Shown here: piece by piece, positions 8,788 to 38,192 of the stretch
Layout: every line of letters begins with the position of its first letter
How positions within the stretch are numbered: position 1 is the stretch's first letter
Source: a virus
Lineage: Duplodnaviria; Caudoviricetes
Length of the DNA: 64,000 bases
IMG/VR virus record: IMGVR_UViG_3300025121_000013
Direction: 5' to 3' (one strand)
Notes under the pieces: generated by a model
Databases searched by the model: none
What the model saw: only the letters and a program-made list of their open reading frames with translations
What the model was told of the DNA's origin: nothing
Translations under genes and position numbers: made by a program

Positions 8788-11700
8788 ATGGCTTCAATTA
8801 AAGATACGTTTGCAAAGTTAAAAACTTCTATCGTTGGAACAACCACCACAAATATTGATAATAAATTAGATCAGGCTTTAACTGATATTAATTCATATAG
8901 AAATCAAAGTGGTAAAAATGGTTATATTGATTTAATGAAAACTTTGATTTCAAAGAATGTTGATTTTGTTCCCGACGTTGCTAACACCGGAACTGGGTTA
9001 TTTGGGTCTGCTGGTTCTTCTCCAGCTAATTATGGACAAAGTGGCAGAATTTTAAGATATAAAGTTTATCAATCAATTGTTACAAATATTAGTTATTGTT
9101 TTAGAGCATTGGATGTTTTAGTTGATAATATTTTATCTCCAGATGACATTACAAAAATTTCATTAGACGTAAAAGAAATTAAAAATATAAATGATATAAA
9201 TGTTCAAAGTTTGACAGAAAAAACTAAATTATTAATAAATGATATAAAGCTTGAAAAACATTTGCCTTTAATTATTAAAGAGACATTAAAGTTTGGAGAT
9301 TTCTTTGTCGAGATTAGCAATTCAAAAGATGTTTTATTTACAAAAACAATTTTAACTGAAGAGAGTATTTTAGGACAGGATGAAAACAGAGGAAAACAAA
9401 GAATCAAATTACAAGAAAAACTTATTGATGAAAAAGATTCAAAGTTAAAAATTCCTGAAATTTTAATAGATTATAAGATATTAGAAAATGAAAGAAAAGA
9501 AGGAAAAAAAGAAGAGAAAAAATTAACTTCTAAAGATATTAAATTAGTTTTTCATGCCCCTCAAAGAGTGGTAAAATTACAGAGTGTCGCATATCCAATT
9601 TGTTTTGGATATTTAATATTTCCACAATCCTCATTTACTCCAATAGAGATGTTTCAAGACACCACAATAAATAATATTTGTAATCAAATTTTAAAAAATC
9701 TTGAATCAAATATTCCAGCGATGGGTGACTTTGATGCGCCGGATGATTTAAAAGATGTCATCCGTTTAATGATTCAAAATGCCGATCCAACCAGAGCATT
9801 GAGTATTAGATATGTTCCGCCTAATAAAATTGCACATTTTTTGGTCCCATCTTATAAATATTATCCTTATGGAGAATCCATATATGATAGCGCTCAATAC
9901 ACGGCGAAAGTTTTAATCGCTTTAGAAACGGCTTTAGCCATTCAAAGACTTTCAAGATCAACTGAGAAAAGAAAGATCACGGTTGATATTGGATTGCCAA
10001 GAGATGCAAAAAAAGAGATTGAAAGTTTAAAAGAAGTTTTTAGAAAGAGAAAAATCAATTTAGATTCGTTTGGAACTATCGACACTATAGCGTGTTTAGA
10101 TTTGGATACTGAGATTATGTTGACAAATGGCAAATCAATGCCAATAGGAGACATTGTAAAATATTTTAATGAAGGAAAAGAATTTGAAATTTTAGCCTAT
10201 GATAAAGAGTCTGGGACAATTGTTCCTGATAAAGTTGTAAGCGCTAAAATAACTGGAAGAAATGTTAAAACTATAAAGGTGATTTTAGATAATAATGAAT
10301 TTGTAATTTGTACGCCTGAACATTTATTTATGATGAGAGATGGCTCATATAAGGAAGCAAAAGATCTTATTCTTGGTGATTCTTTAATGCCTTTATATAC
10401 ACGATCTTCAAATAGTACAACTTCTAAGGGGTTTACTTATGAAGAAATGTATCAACCTGGGTTAAATACTTGGAAATTAACCCATCAAGTTTTTGGAAAA
10501 TATTTAGGACTTTATGAAAATAAAGATGTTGTGCATCATATTAATAAAAATCCAAGAGATAATAGTTCTTGTAATCTTTTAGGATGTACACATACAGAAC
10601 ATGCTGAGATTCACTCAAATGATAAAGAAAATGGTTATAACGGTGGAAATATTGGAAGGACTCAAATTAGAAAGAAAATAAATTGTGTTATTTGTGAAAA
10701 AGAATTTGAGAAAAATTATTGGGAAGAAAAACTAACTTGTTCCAATGAATGCTTTTTAATTTATAAGAAAAACTATAGCGTAAAGTCTTGGGAAACAAGA
10801 AAAGATCAAAATGAATATGTGCTTCATTCGGAAAAGTGTTTTATTTGTGGGAAAGAGTTTAAGATCACTAGATCTTTATATAATAAGATGATCGACGATG
10901 GTTTGAGATTAGTTTGTGAAAGTAAAAAATGCAAAGAAATTAATAAAGCGGTAAGAAAAGAAAGTTGTCCTATTTTTTATGTAGAATGTGTTAATTGTAA
11001 AAGAAATTTTATATCTGAAGATAAAAATAGAAAGGCTTGCAATGTTTTTTGTTGGAATAAACATATTAAAGAAAATGGGTTTAAACAAAATAGAGTTTCA
11101 GGAAAATGTCAAAACTGCGGAAAAAACGATATAGTATATTCTAAAGGTTTTTATAAAACATGTGATAATAAGAATTGTAAAAAAATAACAAAATCTTTAA
11201 ATACAACTTTATGTAAAAATGGAAATTGTACATTAATTGATTTTACAAAATGTTCTATATGTGGAAAAGATACTGTAATTTCCAAAAAGAAATCTGGATA
11301 CACTTTTGGAACTTGTGGAATAAGATCTTGTAGCCATAAAGCAATGCATAGGGGAATTTATCGAAATAAAGATCTTCAGGTTTTAAGAGAAGGAGTGAAG
11401 ATTGAAAAAAAGATTTTTTCAAATCATAAAGTTGAATCTATCGAGTATTTAAATGAAGGAAGAGATGTCGCAGACATTCAGACATCTAAATATCATAATT
11501 TCGGACTTAAAGCTAGTATATTCGTACATAATTCGCAAATCTCCACATTCGAGGATATCTATATTCCTACCAAGGACGGTAAGGCTTTTTTCGATGTTGA
11601 CACATTTACCGGTGGAAATGTTGATATTAGATCAAAAGTTGATGAGTTAAAATTCCTTAGAGATCAATTAGTTGCATCACTTTCGATTCCACCAGCGTTT

Positions 11701-12132
11701 TTGGGGATAGAAGAAAACGCGATCGTTAAAGCCACGTTATCCGAAGAGAATATTCTTTTTGCTAGAACAATTATTGCAGACCAGAAATTTATTTCTGAAC
11801 AAATAAATGATTTAATAGAAAAGATTTATCAAATTATTGATCCAGAAGAATATTTAACAGCTTGGGAAAATATTAAAATTACTTTGCCTCCGCCAAAGTC
11901 TTTACAATTTGAGAGAGAAGCAAAATATACAAATGATTTAGTCACTTTAGTTGAATCGCTTGAAAGAATAGGGATTCCAAAAAGTTATAGTGTTAAGAAA
12001 TATTTACAAAATATTGACTGGAAAGAAATAGATCAAATAAAAGCTGAAGAAGAAACTGAGGAAAAACTTAATTCAAAAGACAAAGATACAACAGGAGGAA
12101 TGGGTGGCAGTGGGTTGCCTCCTATGTACTAA
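8788..12132 (+). CDS. Portal protein (T4 gp20-like) containing an intein
   Basis: KFGDFF, YGESI, R...TEKRKI.VDIG.LP and EDIYIP..DG....VDTFTGG...DEL..L...L..SL.IP match gp20; lies upstream of the protease and capsid genes. Confidence 0.85.
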   Translation: MASIKDTFAKLKTSIVGTTTTNIDNKLDQALTDINSYRNQSGKNGYIDLMKTLISKNVDFVPDVANTGTGLFGSAGSSPANYGQSGRILRYKVYQSIVTNISYCFRALDVLVDNILSPDDITKISLDVKEIKNINDINVQSLTEKTKLLINDIKLEKHLPLIIKETLKFGDFFVEISNSKDVLFTKTILTEESILGQDENRGKQRIKLQEKLIDEKDSKLKIPEILIDYKILENERKEGKKEEKKLTSKDIKLVFHAPQRVVKLQSVAYPICFGYLIFPQSSFTPIEMFQDTTINNICNQILKNLESNIPAMGDFDAPDDLKDVIRLMIQNADPTRALSIRYVPPNKIAHFLVPSYKYYPYGESIYDSAQYTAKVLIALETALAIQRLSRSTEKRKITVDIGLPRDAKKEIESLKEVFRKRKINLDSFGTIDTIACLDLDTEIMLTNGKSMPIGDIVKYFNEGKEFEILAYDKESGTIVPDKVVSAKITGRNVKTIKVILDNNEFVICTPEHLFMMRDGSYKEAKDLILGDSLMPLYTRSSNSTTSKGFTYEEMYQPGLNTWKLTHQVFGKYLGLYENKDVVHHINKNPRDNSSCNLLGCTHTEHAEIHSNDKENGYNGGNIGRTQIRKKINCVICEKEFEKNYWEEKLTCSNECFLIYKKNYSVKSWETRKDQNEYVLHSEKCFICGKEFKITRSLYNKMIDDGLRLVCESKKCKEINKAVRKESCPIFYVECVNCKRNFISEDKNRKACNVFCWNKHIKENGFKQNRVSGKCQNCGKNDIVYSKGFYKTCDNKNCKKITKSLNTTLCKNGNCTLIDFTKCSICGKDTVISKKKSGYTFGTCGIRSCSHKAMHRGIYRNKDLQVLREGVKIEKKIFSNHKVESIEYLNEGRDVADIQTSKYHNFGLKASIFVHNSQISTFEDIYIPTKDGKAFFDVDTFTGGNVDIRSKVDELKFLRDQLVASLSIPPAFLGIEENAIVKATLSEENILFARTIIADQKFISEQINDLIEKIYQIIDPEEYLTAWENIKITLPPPKSLQFEREAKYTNDLVTLVESLERIGIPKSYSVKKYLQNIDWKEIDQIKAEEETEEKLNSKDKDTTGGMGGSGLPPMY
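10093..11532 (+). mobile_element. Intein (480 aa) with HNH homing endonuclease and Cys-rich repeats
   Basis: Block A CLDLDTEIMLTNG, block B CTPEHLF, HNH VHHINKNPRDN..CNL...H...H, and C-terminal HNF...FVHN followed by Ser. Confidence 0.9.
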
Positions 12133-22052: not shown

Positions 22053-22142
22053 TGGTGCCGAGGACGGGAGTCGAACCCGTACAGGGATTTCTCCACCGAG
22101 GGATTTTAAGTCCCTTGCGTCTACCAGTTCCGCCACCCCGGC
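22053..22142 (-). tRNA. tRNA-Leu(UAA)
   Basis: AGGGA-CT TAA AA-TCCCT; long variable arm; encoded CCA; no intron. Confidence 0.93.
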
Positions 22143-35356: not shown

Positions 35357-36945
35357 TTAATCGTCATCATATTGTTTTTCAAATCCCAATCTAATTCTTC
35401 CTTCATTTTCAATTTGTTCAGTTAAATATTGCATTCTATCTATTAAATCATTGCATTTATCTTGGATCATTTCATTTGCTTTTTCTGTTAACATTCTTTC
35501 TAATTGATCATACATATCATTCAAAGTTTTTCTTGCTGGAATTTTAATTCCATTGACAATTAATTCTACGTCAAACGTCCAATCTTCTCCAGCCTTATGG
35601 TTATTATGAAGATTTTCAACTTTATGGTTTTTAGAATAAAAATCGCCCAAGCATGTCATTACAAACCAATAGAAGAAAGAACCTTGATCATTTTTAAATG
35701 AAAATTCATCTTTATTTTTTTCAATTTCTTCCAATAATTTATTTGCCTTTTCTTTAGCTTGTTCCTGAGCTTCAGGAGACATTCGTTTTCTTAGTTCTTC
35801 GAATGGTTTAGCCATTTATCTCCTTCAATCAATCCAAGGAATCCCAGGGTTATTATAATATGCGCAATACGCTGCGGTTACCACATAATGCTCATCAAAA
35901 TAAGGTTTAAATTTTTTATAAAAAGTTACTTTTGAACGAATAAATGCAGCACATTTAGGGCCTATGCAAAATTCATCATTTCTTCTTGGACATTTTCTTC
36001 CAGAAACAATTCCTTCACTCTGAGCTGATAATGACATTGCAGTATTTTTATTATTAATATTTTTTTGATTTATACTAAGAAAAGCAAGAGAGTCTGGAAA
36101 ATCATGAACGGTCATATTTTCTCCTTTTTGAAGAAAGTAGTCGTTTAAAAATAAATCAATTAAAATATGTTTTATTTATCTTTCTTTCTTTTTTTACCTT
36201 CGGACATTTTTCTAAATGACCATTTATCAAATCCTTTTTTAATTAACATATCTTTATCAGAAATATTTACAATGGGATTTTCCGTTCTAGGCAAAACCCC
36301 ACCAATGAACATTGATAATTCTTGAAAGGCGGTTTGAGCATCCATGACCTTAAAAAATTCATAATCTTTTAACATTGGATTTTTTGTGAATATGCCATTG
36401 ATGCTTCTATCAAGACGAGATATTGGGGGCTCACCTAATAAAATTGGTATTTTATTTTCTACAACATATCTCTTATATTTTTCACTTCCATTTTCTAAAA
36501 AGATGTTATCAAGAATTGTATCATATGAATCTTCTTTTCTCCTAAAGGAGATTTTTTCTAACCATTTCCAATGTATAAATAACTCTTTAATTTTTTCTTC
36601 TTTAATATTATAAGATTCTAATTTTTTTAAAAAGCTTTCTTTTGTATAATGAAAAGAAATTAAGGTTTTAGGATGTACTTCAACCATCTTATAATTTTCA
36701 ATCATAAAGGAAAAAGATAGTCGTATCCCCCTATAATATTTTCCACAGAAAATAATGAAAAACTCATCAATATTTAAATTGTTTCGCATTTTTATAGTTA
36801 TGTAACAATTATGAAAAAGAGGAATGCTTAATTCTTTAATTCCAAAAATTTCATCTTCAAACTTTCTATTAAAAATTAAGGTTCTATCTTGCCCTTGTTT
36901 TTGAACTCCATCATAATAATCATGTCGAGAGTCAATGATCCTCAA
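35357..36945 (-). CDS. Three hypothetical ORFs (35357-35815, 35825-36115, 36172-36945)
   Basis: AAGGAG RBSs; the last carries MRIID..HDYYD and FQELSMFIG...KGFDK.SFRK blocks that look conserved. Confidence 0.6.
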
Positions 36946-36969: not shown

Positions 36970-37041
36970 TGGGGGAGTCATCTACGGGATTGCAACGCAC
37001 TCCCTAGAAAGTCTTTAGAAGACTTTCCGATGACTCCCCCA
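36970..37041 (-). ncRNA. Branched structured element: 12-13 bp closing stem and two internal hairpins
   Basis: TGGGGGAGTCATC/GATGACTCCCCCA; GAAAGTC-TTCTAAA-GACTTTC; GGGA-G-TGC-GTT-GCA-A-TCCC. Confidence 0.55.
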
Positions 37042-37092
37042 AGTAAAATTAGCGATCCTCTTCCGTCTCCTATGGATAGGGAAGGTTTGTTC

Positions 37093-37183
37093 TGGCGCCC
37101 GGATCCTGATTCGAACAGGAAACTCATTTTTCACCTTGGATCGCTCTAGATGAAAATCGCTTTGCCTTTTAAGCTATCCGGGT
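37093..37183 (-). ncRNA. tRNA-like RNA with the anticodon loop expanded by about 15 nt
   Basis: Acceptor ACCCGGA/TCCGGGC-G-CCA, D arm GCTT/AAGC and T arm TCCTG-TTCGAAT-CAGGA; no canonical 7-nt anticodon loop. Confidence 0.7.
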
Positions 37184-37188
37184 CAAAA

Positions 37189-37600
37189 TGGTGGAGGTGC
37201 ACGGGAGCTGCCCCCGTGGTCCGCAATGTTTTTCGCATGAAGATCCTACGCTCATAGTCTTCATAAATACTCACATAAAACAGAAGACCTTTTTATGTGA
37301 GGGAAGATATCCAAAACAACATTCGAAATCAAAAGACCTGGAACTTCCAATTCAGTCTAACGATTTCTATTCCTCTGTCGTTACGCCTCAATGAGACTCA
37401 AAGAGGAAGACAGTCTCAAAGAAACGTGCCCGTCGAGCGGACAATGCTGCGTTAAGCTATTAAGCGGCCAAAGCCACCTCATAGCCATCAGCAGCGGCAA
37501 ACGTGAAGTTCGCGGTTATTTTGTTCCGGCATTTTCGGAAGCCAGGCTCCGGAGCGCACTTCAAAGCTACTAATACACCACGTCGAATCTACGCACCCCC
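37189..37600 (-). ncRNA. ssrA: tmRNA, tag (A)ANFTFAAADGYEVALAA**
   Basis: 5' GGGGGTG..GATTCGAC and 3' CACCTCC-A-CCA with G3:U70; resume context AAATAACC-GCG; tag frame 37460-37513 ending ALAA TAA TAG. Confidence 0.92.
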
Positions 37601-37611
37601 AAAAGTATTCT

Positions 37612-38192
37612 TTAAAGATGGATTTGAGATTCTCTGAACTTATCTAAAAAGATTTTATAATTTTTAACCATGTTTTCAAAGATTTCTTCTTCCCAAGGTT
37701 CATCAGTATGAAATAAATGAATTGTACACATATTTATTTGACAAGAAATTCTAAAAGAATTTAACAAAACAATTATATTTTCTAGGCCACAAATTTTAAC
37801 TATTTCTTTTTCTGTTAAGGATATAATTTTGTTCTTTTTTAACCATGATGCTAGTTCAAAATCATTAACATCGTCACTTGTCCATTTCATGAAATATTTT
37901 AAATATGTTTTTTGTTCATTGAACATATCTCCCTTAACAGAAATACCTAAAAGATAATAATATTTTTTCTCAATCATAAGTTATTATTATCATTATTAAA
38001 TTTAGGATCTTTAATATAAAAGATCCCAGTTCCTCTTGAATTATTAAGCCATTCATCCAAACAATCATGAAGAAACACCCTATGATTTAAATTTATAGAA
38101 TTAAAATCACAACCTTTTGGCTCAATATCTGAATGAACCCAAGTTCCATCTTCTCTTTGATATTCGATCTCAGCTCGTATTTCAGGCATCAA
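37612..38192 (-). CDS. Two hypothetical ORFs (37612-37977, 37974-38192)
   Basis: Overlapping, co-oriented ORFs. Confidence 0.55.

What the first reader, a model, noticed from the sequence alone, without database searches (positions are those of the whole stretch)
37093..37183. tRNA-shaped RNA with no normal anticodon, 5 nt downstream of tmRNA, whose loop can pair with a downstream trailer
Seen: canonical D arm, T arm, 5-nt variable loop and CCA, but an A1:C72 mismatch. The ATTTT/AAAAT stem encloses 22 nt instead of 7. The insert can extend the helix (CATCT/AGGTG) and end in a GCGA tetraloop. No 15-nt excision in this register gives U33. In a shifted register (TTTTC/GAAAA) the loop starts AT-CTA-G, so removing 12 nt would give a CUA anticodon. 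The insert's AGCGATCC (37145-37138) is exactly complementary to GGATCGCT (37058-37051) in the trailer. Inference: a tRNA mimic (decoy for anticodon nucleases or uncharged-tRNA sensors), a short-intron amber suppressor, or one domain of a larger structured RNA.
Basis: partly seen in the sequence, partly recalled or inferred. Interest (0 to 1): 0.72.

Follow-up and report, generated by a model that had tools for sequence, protein, structure and literature searches.

The report
Anticodon-less tRNA-shaped RNA behind phage tmRNA
A giant groundwater phage carries, 5 bases after its own ribosome-rescue RNA (tmRNA), a gene for an RNA with a complete tRNA body but a long capped hairpin where the anticodon loop should be. 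It almost certainly cannot read codons, and it belongs to a long-known but unexplained group of odd tRNA-like RNAs in phage tRNA operons.

Summary
At 37093-37183 (-) lies a 91-nt tRNA cloverleaf, 5 nt after a solid tmRNA. All core tertiary positions and an encoded GCCA are present, with an A1xC72 mismatch. The anticodon stem encloses 22 nt that stack into a 9-10 bp rod with a GCGA tip. Searched alone, Rfam's tRNA model scores it 37.7 bits (cut-off 29).

It is not a working decoder. No excision in the canonical register gives U33. The CUA reading needs a six-layer stem, G37 and splice sites inside a helix, with no bulge-helix-bulge motif. The phage shows no amber recoding.

No homologue or sequence variant exists in any collection I could reach, so covariation cannot be tested. 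The helix extension (p~0.03) and the 8-nt match to the trailer (p~0.02) are only marginal.

Context helps. Three of eight related tmRNA loci have an aberrant, mutually unrelated tRNA-like unit 5-9 nt after the tmRNA. This phage has a second anticodon-less tRNA-like RNA, 5 nt after tRNA-Leu. T4 rnaC is built the same way.

Best reading (about 0.4): a non-decoding, tRNA-derived RNA co-transcribed with tmRNA, which host RNase P cuts out, freeing the tmRNA 3' end. Earlier notes of this scan describe similar RNAs in other phages.

The parts
37652..37679 (-). sigma-70-like promoter candidate (TTGAAA-16-TAAAAT) about 50 nt upstream of the tmRNA
   Evidence: Consensus scan. It is a consensus match only, and the number of such matches in the region is not above the shuffles.
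37189..37600 (-). phage tmRNA, full length, ending in ACCA
   Evidence: Rfam RF00023, 88.9 bits, model positions 1-374. ARAGORN misses it.
37184..37188 (-). 5-nt spacer UUUUG between the tmRNA CCA and position 1 of the tRNA-like RNA; expected RNase P cut at its 3' side
   Evidence: Sequence. The cleavage is inferred, not shown.
37093..37183 (-). 91-nt tRNA-shaped RNA with encoded GCCA
   Evidence: Rfam tRNA model 37.7 bits against a cut-off of 29, with a 21-nt insert. Fold. ARAGORN -i call.
37126..37157 (-). elongated anticodon arm (element positions 27-58): 9-10 bp, bulges, and a 2-bp tip with a GCGA tetraloop at 37141-37144
   Evidence: -7.5 kcal/mol; 3.3% of insert shuffles fold as well.
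37138..37145 (-). AGCGAUCC in the tip of the arm
37060..37084 (-). first trailer hairpin (CUUCC...GGAAG)
   Evidence: Fold.
37051..37058 (-). GGAUCGCU, single-stranded in the predicted fold and an exact complement of the arm tip
36970..37040 (-). Y-shaped structured element (12-13 bp closing helix, 8-10 bp hairpin with a UUCUAAA/CUA loop, second small arm), followed by AUUUUAAAAA; likely end of the RNA operon or a terminator
   Evidence: Fold z-score -4.9, with 0 of 200 shuffles as stable. The simple terminator scan did not call it.
36172..36945 (-). next gene, a 257-aa ORF with TTG start and an AAAGGAG ribosome-binding site; no known family
   Evidence: Homologues sit in the tRNA regions of other jumbo phages, some beside RtcB.

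Best explanation
The element is a tRNA-derived RNA that no longer decodes. It is transcribed as the second unit of a tmRNA operon (promoter, tmRNA, 5 nt, tRNA-like RNA, structured trailer).

Proposed mechanism:
- It keeps the acceptor stem, D/T elbow and CCA, which are the parts that tRNA-processing enzymes recognise. Host RNase P should therefore cut at its position 1.
- That cut would leave the tmRNA with a 5-nt tail, which exonucleases could trim back to CCA.
- It would also release the element as a stable, CCA-ended tRNA-shaped RNA.
- The anticodon loop is replaced by a rod about twice the normal length with a GNRA cap, and the 1:72 pair is mismatched. Both should keep it out of elongation.

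Shown here: the tRNA body, the aberrant arm, the obligate co-transcription geometry, and the recurrence of aberrant tRNA-like units at this position in related phages.

Inferred, not shown: RNase P cleavage, stability, and any role beyond processing.
For: 1. The tRNA body is intact. It scores 37.7 bits on RF00005. U8-A14, A9, R15-Y48, G18G19 with U55C56, A21, G26, G53-C61 and U54-A58 are all present (read).
2. All the damage is confined to the anticodon loop. The extra 15 nt extend the helix with a G.U pair and a GNRA cap, which points to an RNA-level structure rather than a DNA-level palindrome.
3. A 5-nt spacer leaves no room for a separate promoter.
4. Among 8 tmRNA loci of related T4-like jumbo phages, 3 have an aberrant tRNA-like unit 5-9 nt after the tmRNA: this one, L216 (5 nt) and L181/G003 (9 nt). 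All three keep an acceptor stem plus T arm, and two encode CCA. The units are not homologous to each other, so what recurs is the position and the tRNA top half, not a sequence.
5. In less related phages the same slot holds an ordinary tRNA 3-4 nt after the tmRNA (L070, L078).
6. The same phage has a second anticodon-less, class II tRNA-like RNA 5 nt after tRNA-Leu(UAA).
7. T4 rnaC, the last unit of the T4 tRNA operon, has a canonical T arm next to long hairpins.
8. From established knowledge: RNase P separates units in bacterial polycistronic tRNA transcripts, its minimal substrate is the acceptor/T-arm helix, and a 1:72 mismatch disfavours EF-Tu binding, as in initiator tRNA.
Against: - There is no RNA evidence of any kind, and no homologue or variant of this element, so no covariation.
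- Five of the 8 related tmRNA loci have no tRNA-like unit after the tmRNA, so such a handle is not required.
- An ordinary tRNA would serve equally well as an RNase P handle. Processing alone therefore does not explain why the decoding arm is rebuilt into a neat rod.
- The statistical support for the rod (p~0.03) is modest and post hoc.
Confidence: 0.4

Rival explanations
1. A recently dead tRNA gene: a 15-nt insertion killed the anticodon loop, and the rest has not yet decayed. It has no function.
For: The element is unique to this phage lineage. There is no counterpart in 31 capsid-related phages by BLAST or by covariance model. All public assemblies of this phage are identical, so no selection can be shown. 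The helix and complementarity statistics are only marginal. Oddly sized tRNA-like genes are scattered through phage tRNA arrays.
Against: Every stem and every tertiary position outside the anticodon loop is intact. The insert extends the helix by 5 bp including a G.U pair and carries a GNRA cap, which a random insertion gives in about 3% of shuffles. A second tRNA-like RNA in the same genome is also damaged only in the anticodon arm. Aberrant units recur directly after the tmRNA in related phages.
Confidence: 0.25
2. A tRNA body used as a scaffold that displays an 8-11 nt loop. The tip AGCGAUCC pairs with GGAUCGCU in its own trailer, forming one larger folded RNA or controlling trailer processing or termination before the 257-aa gene. 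Alternatively it pairs with an unknown host RNA.
For: The 8-nt complement is exact, and its target is single-stranded in the predicted fold. It arises in 1.8% of trailer shuffles. Opening the 2-bp tip costs little. The trailer is strongly structured (z -4.9). The 8-mer is otherwise nearly absent from the 139-kb record.
Against: The probability rises to 12% if any part of the element is allowed to pair. There is no covariation. The minimum-free-energy fold of the whole region does not use the pairing. No comparable pairing was looked for or seen in L216 or L181.
Confidence: 0.12
3. A decoy or sponge for a host factor that recognises the tRNA elbow or acceptor end rather than the anticodon, for example a defence toxin that modifies tRNA 3' ends.
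For: The tRNA top half and CCA are intact while decoding is lost. That such toxins exist is established knowledge, not tested here.
Against: There is no evidence for any partner, and a sponge would need very high copy number.
Confidence: 0.1
4. A decoding tRNA with a mini-intron: 12 nt are removed enzymatically to give a CUA (amber) or related anticodon loop, like the 'enigmatic introns' reported in Lak megaphage tRNAs.
For: ARAGORN -i calls tRNA(CUA) with a 12-nt intron after position 37. Intron-anticodon helices are typical of pre-tRNAs. Phage tRNA genes with inserts exist: L089 tRNA-Glu with 39 nt after position 37, and L045 with four genes sharing a ~41-nt insert, plus Devoto et al. 2019 (PMC6784885). 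RtcB ligase genes lie beside homologues of the neighbouring ORF in other phages.
Against: In the canonical register no excision gives U33. The CUA solution needs a six-layer stem topped by A.A, a 6-nt variable region and G37. The proposed cuts fall inside a continuous 9-bp helix, with bulges of 1 and 2 nt rather than 3-4-3. The insert is far too short for a group I intron. ARAGORN -i is very permissive. No amber recoding is seen: capsid, portal and helicase genes are intact under code 11, TAG ends 16 of 158 long ORFs, and no domain spans a TAG. No RtcB was found in the 139-kb record.
Confidence: 0.08

Closest known systems
Bacteriophage T4 species 1 and species 2 stable RNAs (rnaC, rnaD)
   Same: They are small stable RNAs of unknown function at the 3' end of a T4-type phage tRNA operon, starting 1-6 nt after the preceding unit. 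rnaC has a canonical T arm (CCGGG-UUCGAAU-CCCGG) next to long hairpins where the D and anticodon arms would be. This phage is T4-like by its Gp23-family capsid protein.
   Different: There is no sequence similarity. Our element keeps a full D arm and a canonical 7-bp acceptor with encoded CCA, and only its anticodon loop is altered. It follows a tmRNA, not a tRNA.
'Enigmatic' introns in Lak megaphage tRNA genes (Devoto et al. 2019, PMC6784885)
   Same: They are phage tRNA genes that bacterial tRNA finders miss because of extra sequence in the anticodon region. No splicing mechanism is known for them.
   Different: Lak phages read TAG as an amino acid and need suppressors, and their inserts leave a sensible tRNA when removed. 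Here there is no recoding, and no excision restores a canonical loop.
mascRNA / MALAT1 3'-end tRNA-like element (own knowledge)
   Same: A tRNA-like fold placed directly after a functional RNA, so that RNase P cleavage creates that RNA's 3' end and releases a small tRNA-like by-product.
   Different: That system is eukaryotic. Cleavage here is only inferred, and the bacterial tmRNA 3' end can be matured in other ways.
TLD-only mini-tmRNA of mycobacteriophage DS6A (Hudson et al. 2014, PMC4131195)
   Same: It is a phage-encoded tRNA top half without decoding capacity, linked to the tmRNA system. The unit after the tmRNA in relative G003 is of this type.
   Different: Our element has D and anticodon arms, C3-G70 rather than G3.U70, and no similarity to its own tmRNA ends.
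Bacillus cereus tRNA-Other, a non-translating pseudo-tRNA with a regulatory effect (Rogers et al. 2012, PMC3399842)
   Same: It is a tRNA-shaped RNA that does not work in translation yet has a phenotype (abstract seen).
   Different: It is chromosomal, has a normal-length anticodon arm, and has no link to tmRNA.

Membership tests
tRNA (Rfam RF00005) | Covariance-model score at or above the gathering cut-off of 29 bits | tested here: met
   37.7 bits, E 9e-7, model positions 1-71 with a 21-nt insert in the anticodon loop. Filters lost it in the full-window scan.
tRNA (functional decoder) | 7-nt anticodon loop with U33 and a purine at position 37 | tested here: not met
   The loop is 22 nt. No 15-nt excision gives U33 (sequence). 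Default ARAGORN does not call it.
tRNA (functional decoder) | Conserved core and tertiary positions (U8, A14, G18G19, A21, R15-Y48, G53-C61, UUCRA T-loop) | tested here: met
   All present, by direct reading and the alignment.
Protein-spliced (archaeal/eukaryal type) intron-containing tRNA | Bulge-helix-bulge motif (3-nt bulges separated by 4 bp) at the splice sites | tested here: not met
   The fold gives a continuous 9-bp helix followed by 1-nt and 2-nt bulges around a 2-bp stem. ARAGORN's 3' cut lies inside the helix.
Protein-spliced (archaeal/eukaryal type) intron-containing tRNA | Splicing endonuclease and ligase available | tested here: inconclusive
   No RtcB or T4 Rnl1 family hit in the 139-kb record, which is only about 45% of the genome. 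For Rnl1 no control genome matched either. The host is unknown.
Group I intron in a tRNA gene | Self-splicing ribozyme core, typically 200 nt or more | tested here: not met
   The insert is 12-15 nt, and there is no Rfam intron hit.
Suppressor tRNA of a stop-codon-recoded phage | In-frame TAG codons in phage genes, especially late genes | tested here: not met
   Capsid, portal and helicase genes are intact in code 11. Coverage by ORFs of at least 100 aa is 86% in code 11. TAG is not enriched at same-frame ORF junctions (5 of 28), and no Pfam domain spans a TAG. Only about 45% of the genome is on hand.
T4 rnaC/rnaD-type stable RNAs | Terminal position in a tRNA-type operon, abutting the preceding unit, with a tRNA-like T arm | tested here: met
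T4 rnaC/rnaD-type stable RNAs | Sequence homology to T4 rnaC or rnaD | tested here: not met
   Short-word blastn gives only chance 8-9-mers.
Bacterial Y RNA (YrlA) with tRNA-like domain | Rfam match; Ro/Rsr (TROVE) gene nearby; RNA ends in the Ro-binding stem rather than the acceptor | tested here: not met
   No Rfam hit, no TROVE hit in the record, and the ends lie at the acceptor stem with CCA.
TLD-only mini-tmRNA | Acceptor with G3.U70, no D or anticodon arm, similarity to tmRNA termini | tested here: not met
   C3-G70, full D arm and a long anticodon arm. There is no resemblance to its own tmRNA ends.
RNase P processing handle (mascRNA-like logic) | RNase P cleavage at position 1 that creates the upstream RNA's 3' end | not testable with these tools
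   No RNA runs hold this sequence. This needs end-mapping or an in vitro assay.

The most novel reading that the evidence does not exclude
The 12 nt at the tip of the arm are a true mini-intron, removed by a cut-and-rejoin pathway (an endoribonuclease plus an RtcB-type ligase of phage or host). The product would be a rare amber-reading (CUA) or CUG tRNA. This would be protein-dependent tRNA splicing in a bacterial virus, possibly used to switch a suppressor on late in infection.
Probability: 0.06. Interest if true: 0.9.

Novelty: new variant of a known kind. Interest (0 to 1): 0.5.

Why it matters
Phage tRNA operons have been known since T4 to carry stable tRNA-like RNAs whose function is still unknown after 50 years. 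Giant-phage surveys keep reporting 'tRNAs with enigmatic introns'.

This case adds two concrete points:
- The altered unit can be an otherwise perfect class I tRNA whose only change is a capped rod in place of the anticodon loop.
- In a clade of T4-like jumbo phages, the slot directly after the phage tmRNA is repeatedly occupied by non-decoding tRNA-like units of independent origin.

If these units are RNase P handles, they explain how phage tmRNA is matured from polycistronic transcripts. If they do more, as sponges, scaffolds or spliced suppressors, they are a new layer of phage control over host translation. For annotation, such genes are missed by default tRNA finders or mislabelled as suppressor or Pyl tRNAs.

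Tried and rejected
- blastn of the tmRNA-to-trailer region against 50,697 phage records: no match.
- Exact or degenerate pattern scans of IMG/VR for the anticodon arm with any 12-nt insert (19 hits, all chance, none tRNA-like), for the D arm plus T loop (0 hits), and for a tmRNA block shared with L216 (0 hits).
- The single metagenome scan gave 4 chance hits, none a tmRNA.
- A GTDB genome scan for the D arm plus T loop gave one unrelated odd tRNA in an Alistipes contig.
- Relatives sought through the flanking 257-aa and 745-aa proteins in IMG/VR: none.
- Sequencing runs: no RNA holder is listed. The DNA holders are groundwater and soil metagenomes, and laid contigs show no variant in the element.
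- Members of the neighbouring protein's 90% cluster lead only to identical copies of this locus.
- BLAST and a covariance model of the element against 31 capsid-related phage records returned only the element itself and ordinary tRNA-Ser genes.
- Assigning an amino-acid identity by comparing the body with 1,157 phage tRNAs gave no clear nearest isotype; G73 fits Asn, Gln, Asp, Glu or Trp types.
- ARAGORN with forced introns proved too permissive to count as evidence.
- SmpB, CCA-adding enzyme, RtcB, TROVE and Rnl1 families: no hits in the 139-kb fragment. This is uninformative, because more than half the genome is missing.
- GOLLD, ROOL, Y RNA and other curated RNA families: no Rfam hits here or after the L216 tmRNA.

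Full report
**What the window is.** The window lies in a 139-kb IMG/VR virus record, about 45% complete and 29% GC. Its major capsid protein belongs to the T4 Gp23 family, and it has hundreds of relatives at about 70% identity, many on contigs of 240-335 kb. The same phage occurs as a ~265-kb contig in several groundwater and soil assemblies. It is therefore a T4-like jumbo phage. The record carries 13 tRNA genes above the Rfam cut-off, most with encoded CCA, and a tmRNA at 37189-37600 (-) that Rfam scores at 88.9 bits.

**Checking the observation.**
- The element starts 5 nt (UUUUG) after the tmRNA's CCA.
- It has a 7-bp acceptor with an A1xC72 mismatch, a 4-bp D stem with an AAAAGGCA loop, a 5-nt variable loop, a UCCUG/CAGGA T stem with UUCGAAU, and then G-CCA.
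- All the usual tertiary positions are in place: U8-A14, A9, A15-U48, G18G19 opposite U55C56, A21, G26, G53-C61 and U54-A58.
- The AUUUU/AAAAU anticodon stem encloses 22 nt instead of 7.
- The minimum-free-energy fold makes a 9-bp helix (using one more A of the A-run), a bulged A, two more pairs, a GCGA tetraloop and a CA bulge.

Searched on its own, the region scores 37.7 bits on the Rfam tRNA model against a cut-off of 29. The alignment uses the canonical register and a 21-nt insert. The whole-window scan lost it to filters, and default ARAGORN does not call it.

**How much is beyond chance.**
- The tRNA body certainly is.
- The rod is marginal: 3.3% of shuffles of the 22-nt insert fold as well.
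- The 8-nt complement between AGCGAUCC in the tip and GGAUCGCU in the trailer is exact. It arises in 1.8% of trailer shuffles, or in 12% if any part of the element may pair.
- Both features were noticed post hoc.

**Can it decode?**
- In the canonical register, no removal of 15 contiguous nucleotides gives U33.
- ARAGORN with introns allowed reports tRNA(CUA) with a 12-nt intron. That solution needs a six-layer anticodon stem topped by A.A, a 6-nt variable region and G37, and its 3' cut falls inside the 9-bp helix.
- There is no 3-4-3 bulge-helix-bulge motif, and 12-15 nt cannot be a group I intron.
- ARAGORN's intron mode also 'finds' introns in most ordinary tRNAs, so its call carries little weight.
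- The phage shows no amber recoding. Capsid, portal and helicase genes are intact under code 11. ORFs of at least 100 aa cover 86% of the record. TAG ends 16 of 158 long ORFs and is not enriched at same-frame junctions. No Pfam domain spans a TAG in the three window cases.

I therefore rate the suppressor-with-intron reading as unlikely but not excluded. Part of the reason it stays open is that phage tRNA genes with unexplained inserts do exist. Examples are L089, a tRNA-Glu(UUC) with a 39-nt hairpin after position 37; L045, four genes sharing a ~41-nt insert in the anticodon stem; and the Lak megaphage 'enigmatic introns' (PMC6784885).

**Search for homologues.** None was found by any route:
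- INPHARED blastn.
- Three IMG/VR pattern scans.
- One metagenome scan, with chance hits only.
- Flanking-protein searches.
- BLAST and a purpose-built covariance model over 31 capsid-related phage records.

All public assemblies of this phage are identical across the locus. No RNA run is listed. Covariation and expression therefore cannot be tested here.

**Comparative context, the most informative result.** Among the 31 capsid relatives, six have a real tmRNA. A seventh related tmRNA locus, L216, was reached through a 34%-identical homologue of the downstream 257-aa ORF. Its tmRNA shares several sequence blocks with ours when the two are read side by side.
- In L216 the tmRNA is followed, again after exactly 5 nt, by a 114-nt class II-like tRNA-shaped unit. 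It has an enlarged D loop and an AAUUACA 'anticodon' loop without U33 (weak tRNA-Sec match, 26.9 bits).
- About 550 nt without called genes follow. They hold two more units with an acceptor helix, a T arm with a UAYAAGU loop, and ACCA.
- In G003 (L181) the tmRNA is followed after 9 nt by a 65-nt unit with only an acceptor stem, T arm and ACCA. Its ends resemble the ends of its own tmRNA, with compensatory changes in both stems and G3-C70 in place of G3.U70. It is a TLD-only paralogue, like the one described in mycobacteriophage DS6A.
- The other five loci run straight into a hairpin or an ORF.
- The three units share no sequence.
- In more distant phages the same slot holds an ordinary tRNA 3-4 nt after the tmRNA (L070, L078).
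- This phage also has a second anticodon-less unit. It is a class II tRNA-like RNA at G000:90921-91007, 5 nt after tRNA-Leu(UAA), with intact acceptor, D, variable and T arms but a stunted anticodon hairpin.
- In T4, the last two units of the tRNA operon are the stable RNAs rnaD and rnaC. rnaC shows a canonical T arm beside long hairpins.

**Interpretation.** What recurs is a tRNA top half (acceptor, T arm, often CCA) without a decoding arm, placed immediately after a tmRNA or tRNA. That top half is what RNase P, 3' exonucleases, the CCA-adding enzyme and T-loop modification enzymes recognise (established knowledge). In bacterial polycistronic tRNA transcripts, RNase P is the enzyme that separates the units.

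The explanation with the most support is therefore that the element is cut out by RNase P, and that this cut defines a short 3' tail on the tmRNA. The released tRNA-shaped RNA would be kept out of elongation by its long capped arm and its 1:72 mismatch.

This does not explain why the arm is a neat rod rather than an ordinary anticodon arm, so an additional role is likely. Candidates are display of the AGCGAUCC loop for pairing with the trailer or another RNA, or titration of a factor that binds the tRNA body. Simple decay remains a serious rival, because this exact element is lineage-specific and invariant in the data.

**Neighbourhood.**
- A promoter-like site lies about 50 nt upstream of the tmRNA, and none can fit in the 5-nt spacer.
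- After the element come a small hairpin, the single-stranded GGAUCGCU, and a very stable Y-shaped element at 36970-37040 (z -4.9) followed by AUUUUAAAAA. This is probably the end of the RNA operon.
- The next gene starts 24 nt later.
- Homologues of that gene sit in the tRNA regions of other jumbo phages, in two cases beside RtcB, a radical-SAM enzyme and a metallophosphatase. No RtcB, TROVE, SmpB, CCA-adding enzyme or Rnl1 was detected in the fragment on hand.

**Comparison with earlier notes of this scan.** Several earlier notes describe tRNA-shaped phage RNAs with inserts in place of the anticodon arm in other genomes. One is a GNRA-capped case behind a structured RNA, and another is a large phage-only family. 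These are unchecked AI notes. They agree with what I found independently, and one pointed me to T4 rnaC, which I then inspected myself.

**Verdict.** The feature is real and correctly described. It is tRNA-derived but non-decoding, and it is a new variant within a known but unexplained kind. The mechanism is inferred, not shown.

Noticed in passing
L181:1862-1926 (IMG/VR record G003), 9 nt after its tmRNA (L181:1501-1851): A 65-nt unit with only an acceptor stem, T arm and ACCA. Its 5' and 3' ends resemble those of the adjacent tmRNA, with compensatory changes in the acceptor and T stems and G3-C70 instead of G3.U70. It looks like a TLD-only mini-tmRNA paralogue next to a full tmRNA, as in mycobacteriophage DS6A.
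   Followed up: partly
L216:1895-2570 (NCBI GCA_029935835.1, 335-kb contig): About 680 nt without called genes directly after a tmRNA related to ours. It holds three aberrant tRNA-like units (114, 108 and ~177 nt; two end in ACCA and have UAYAAGU T-loops) and a long hairpin. No Rfam family matches apart from a weak tRNA-Sec hit for the first unit.
   Followed up: partly
G000:C1:90921-91007 (-), outside the window (would be about window 84606-84692): A second anticodon-less tRNA-like RNA in the same phage. It is class II shaped with intact acceptor, D, long variable and T arms but a stunted anticodon hairpin and no encoded CCA. It lies 5 nt after tRNA-Leu(UAA). Rfam tRNA score 37.4 bits.
   Followed up: partly
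Rfam at gathering thresholds reports nothing there. Another first-stage note covers it.
   Followed up: no
L045:10101-10771 (IMG/VR 3300042309_001501): Four neighbouring tRNA genes of 116-121 nt with normal acceptor, D and T arms. At least two share a nearly identical ~41-nt insert that splits the 5' strand of the anticodon stem (between positions 29 and 30), leaving readable UGG and UCU loops. This looks like a small mobile insert family.
   Followed up: partly
L089:3394-3508 (-): A tRNA-Glu(UUC) with an intact UUUUCA start of the anticodon loop, followed by a 39-nt GC-rich hairpin insert at the classical 37/38 position.
   Followed up: no
L218:2488-5667, L220:1-6049: Homologues of the 257-aa ORF downstream of the element lie beside RtcB RNA ligase, a radical-SAM enzyme and a metallophosphatase in other jumbo-phage contigs. 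This may be an RNA-repair neighbourhood.
   Followed up: no
window 22053-22142 (-) and G000:C1:91013-91102 (-): Two tRNA-Leu(UAA) copies that are identical except for the acceptor stem, where the changes are compensatory (GCCGGGG/CCUCGGC versus GCCUGAG/CUUAGGC).
   Followed up: no
window 8788-12132 (+): The 1114-aa portal-like protein has an HNH-endonuclease-like segment in its middle (residues ~578-615), which suggests an inserted mobile element or intein.
   Followed up: no
window 36970-37040 (-): A very stable Y-shaped RNA (z -4.9) with a perfect 8-10 bp hairpin whose loop reads UUCUAAA (CUA in the anticodon-like position). It ends the tmRNA operon. It has no CCA and no T-loop, so I read it as a terminator or structured 3' end rather than a second tRNA mimic.
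   Followed up: partly
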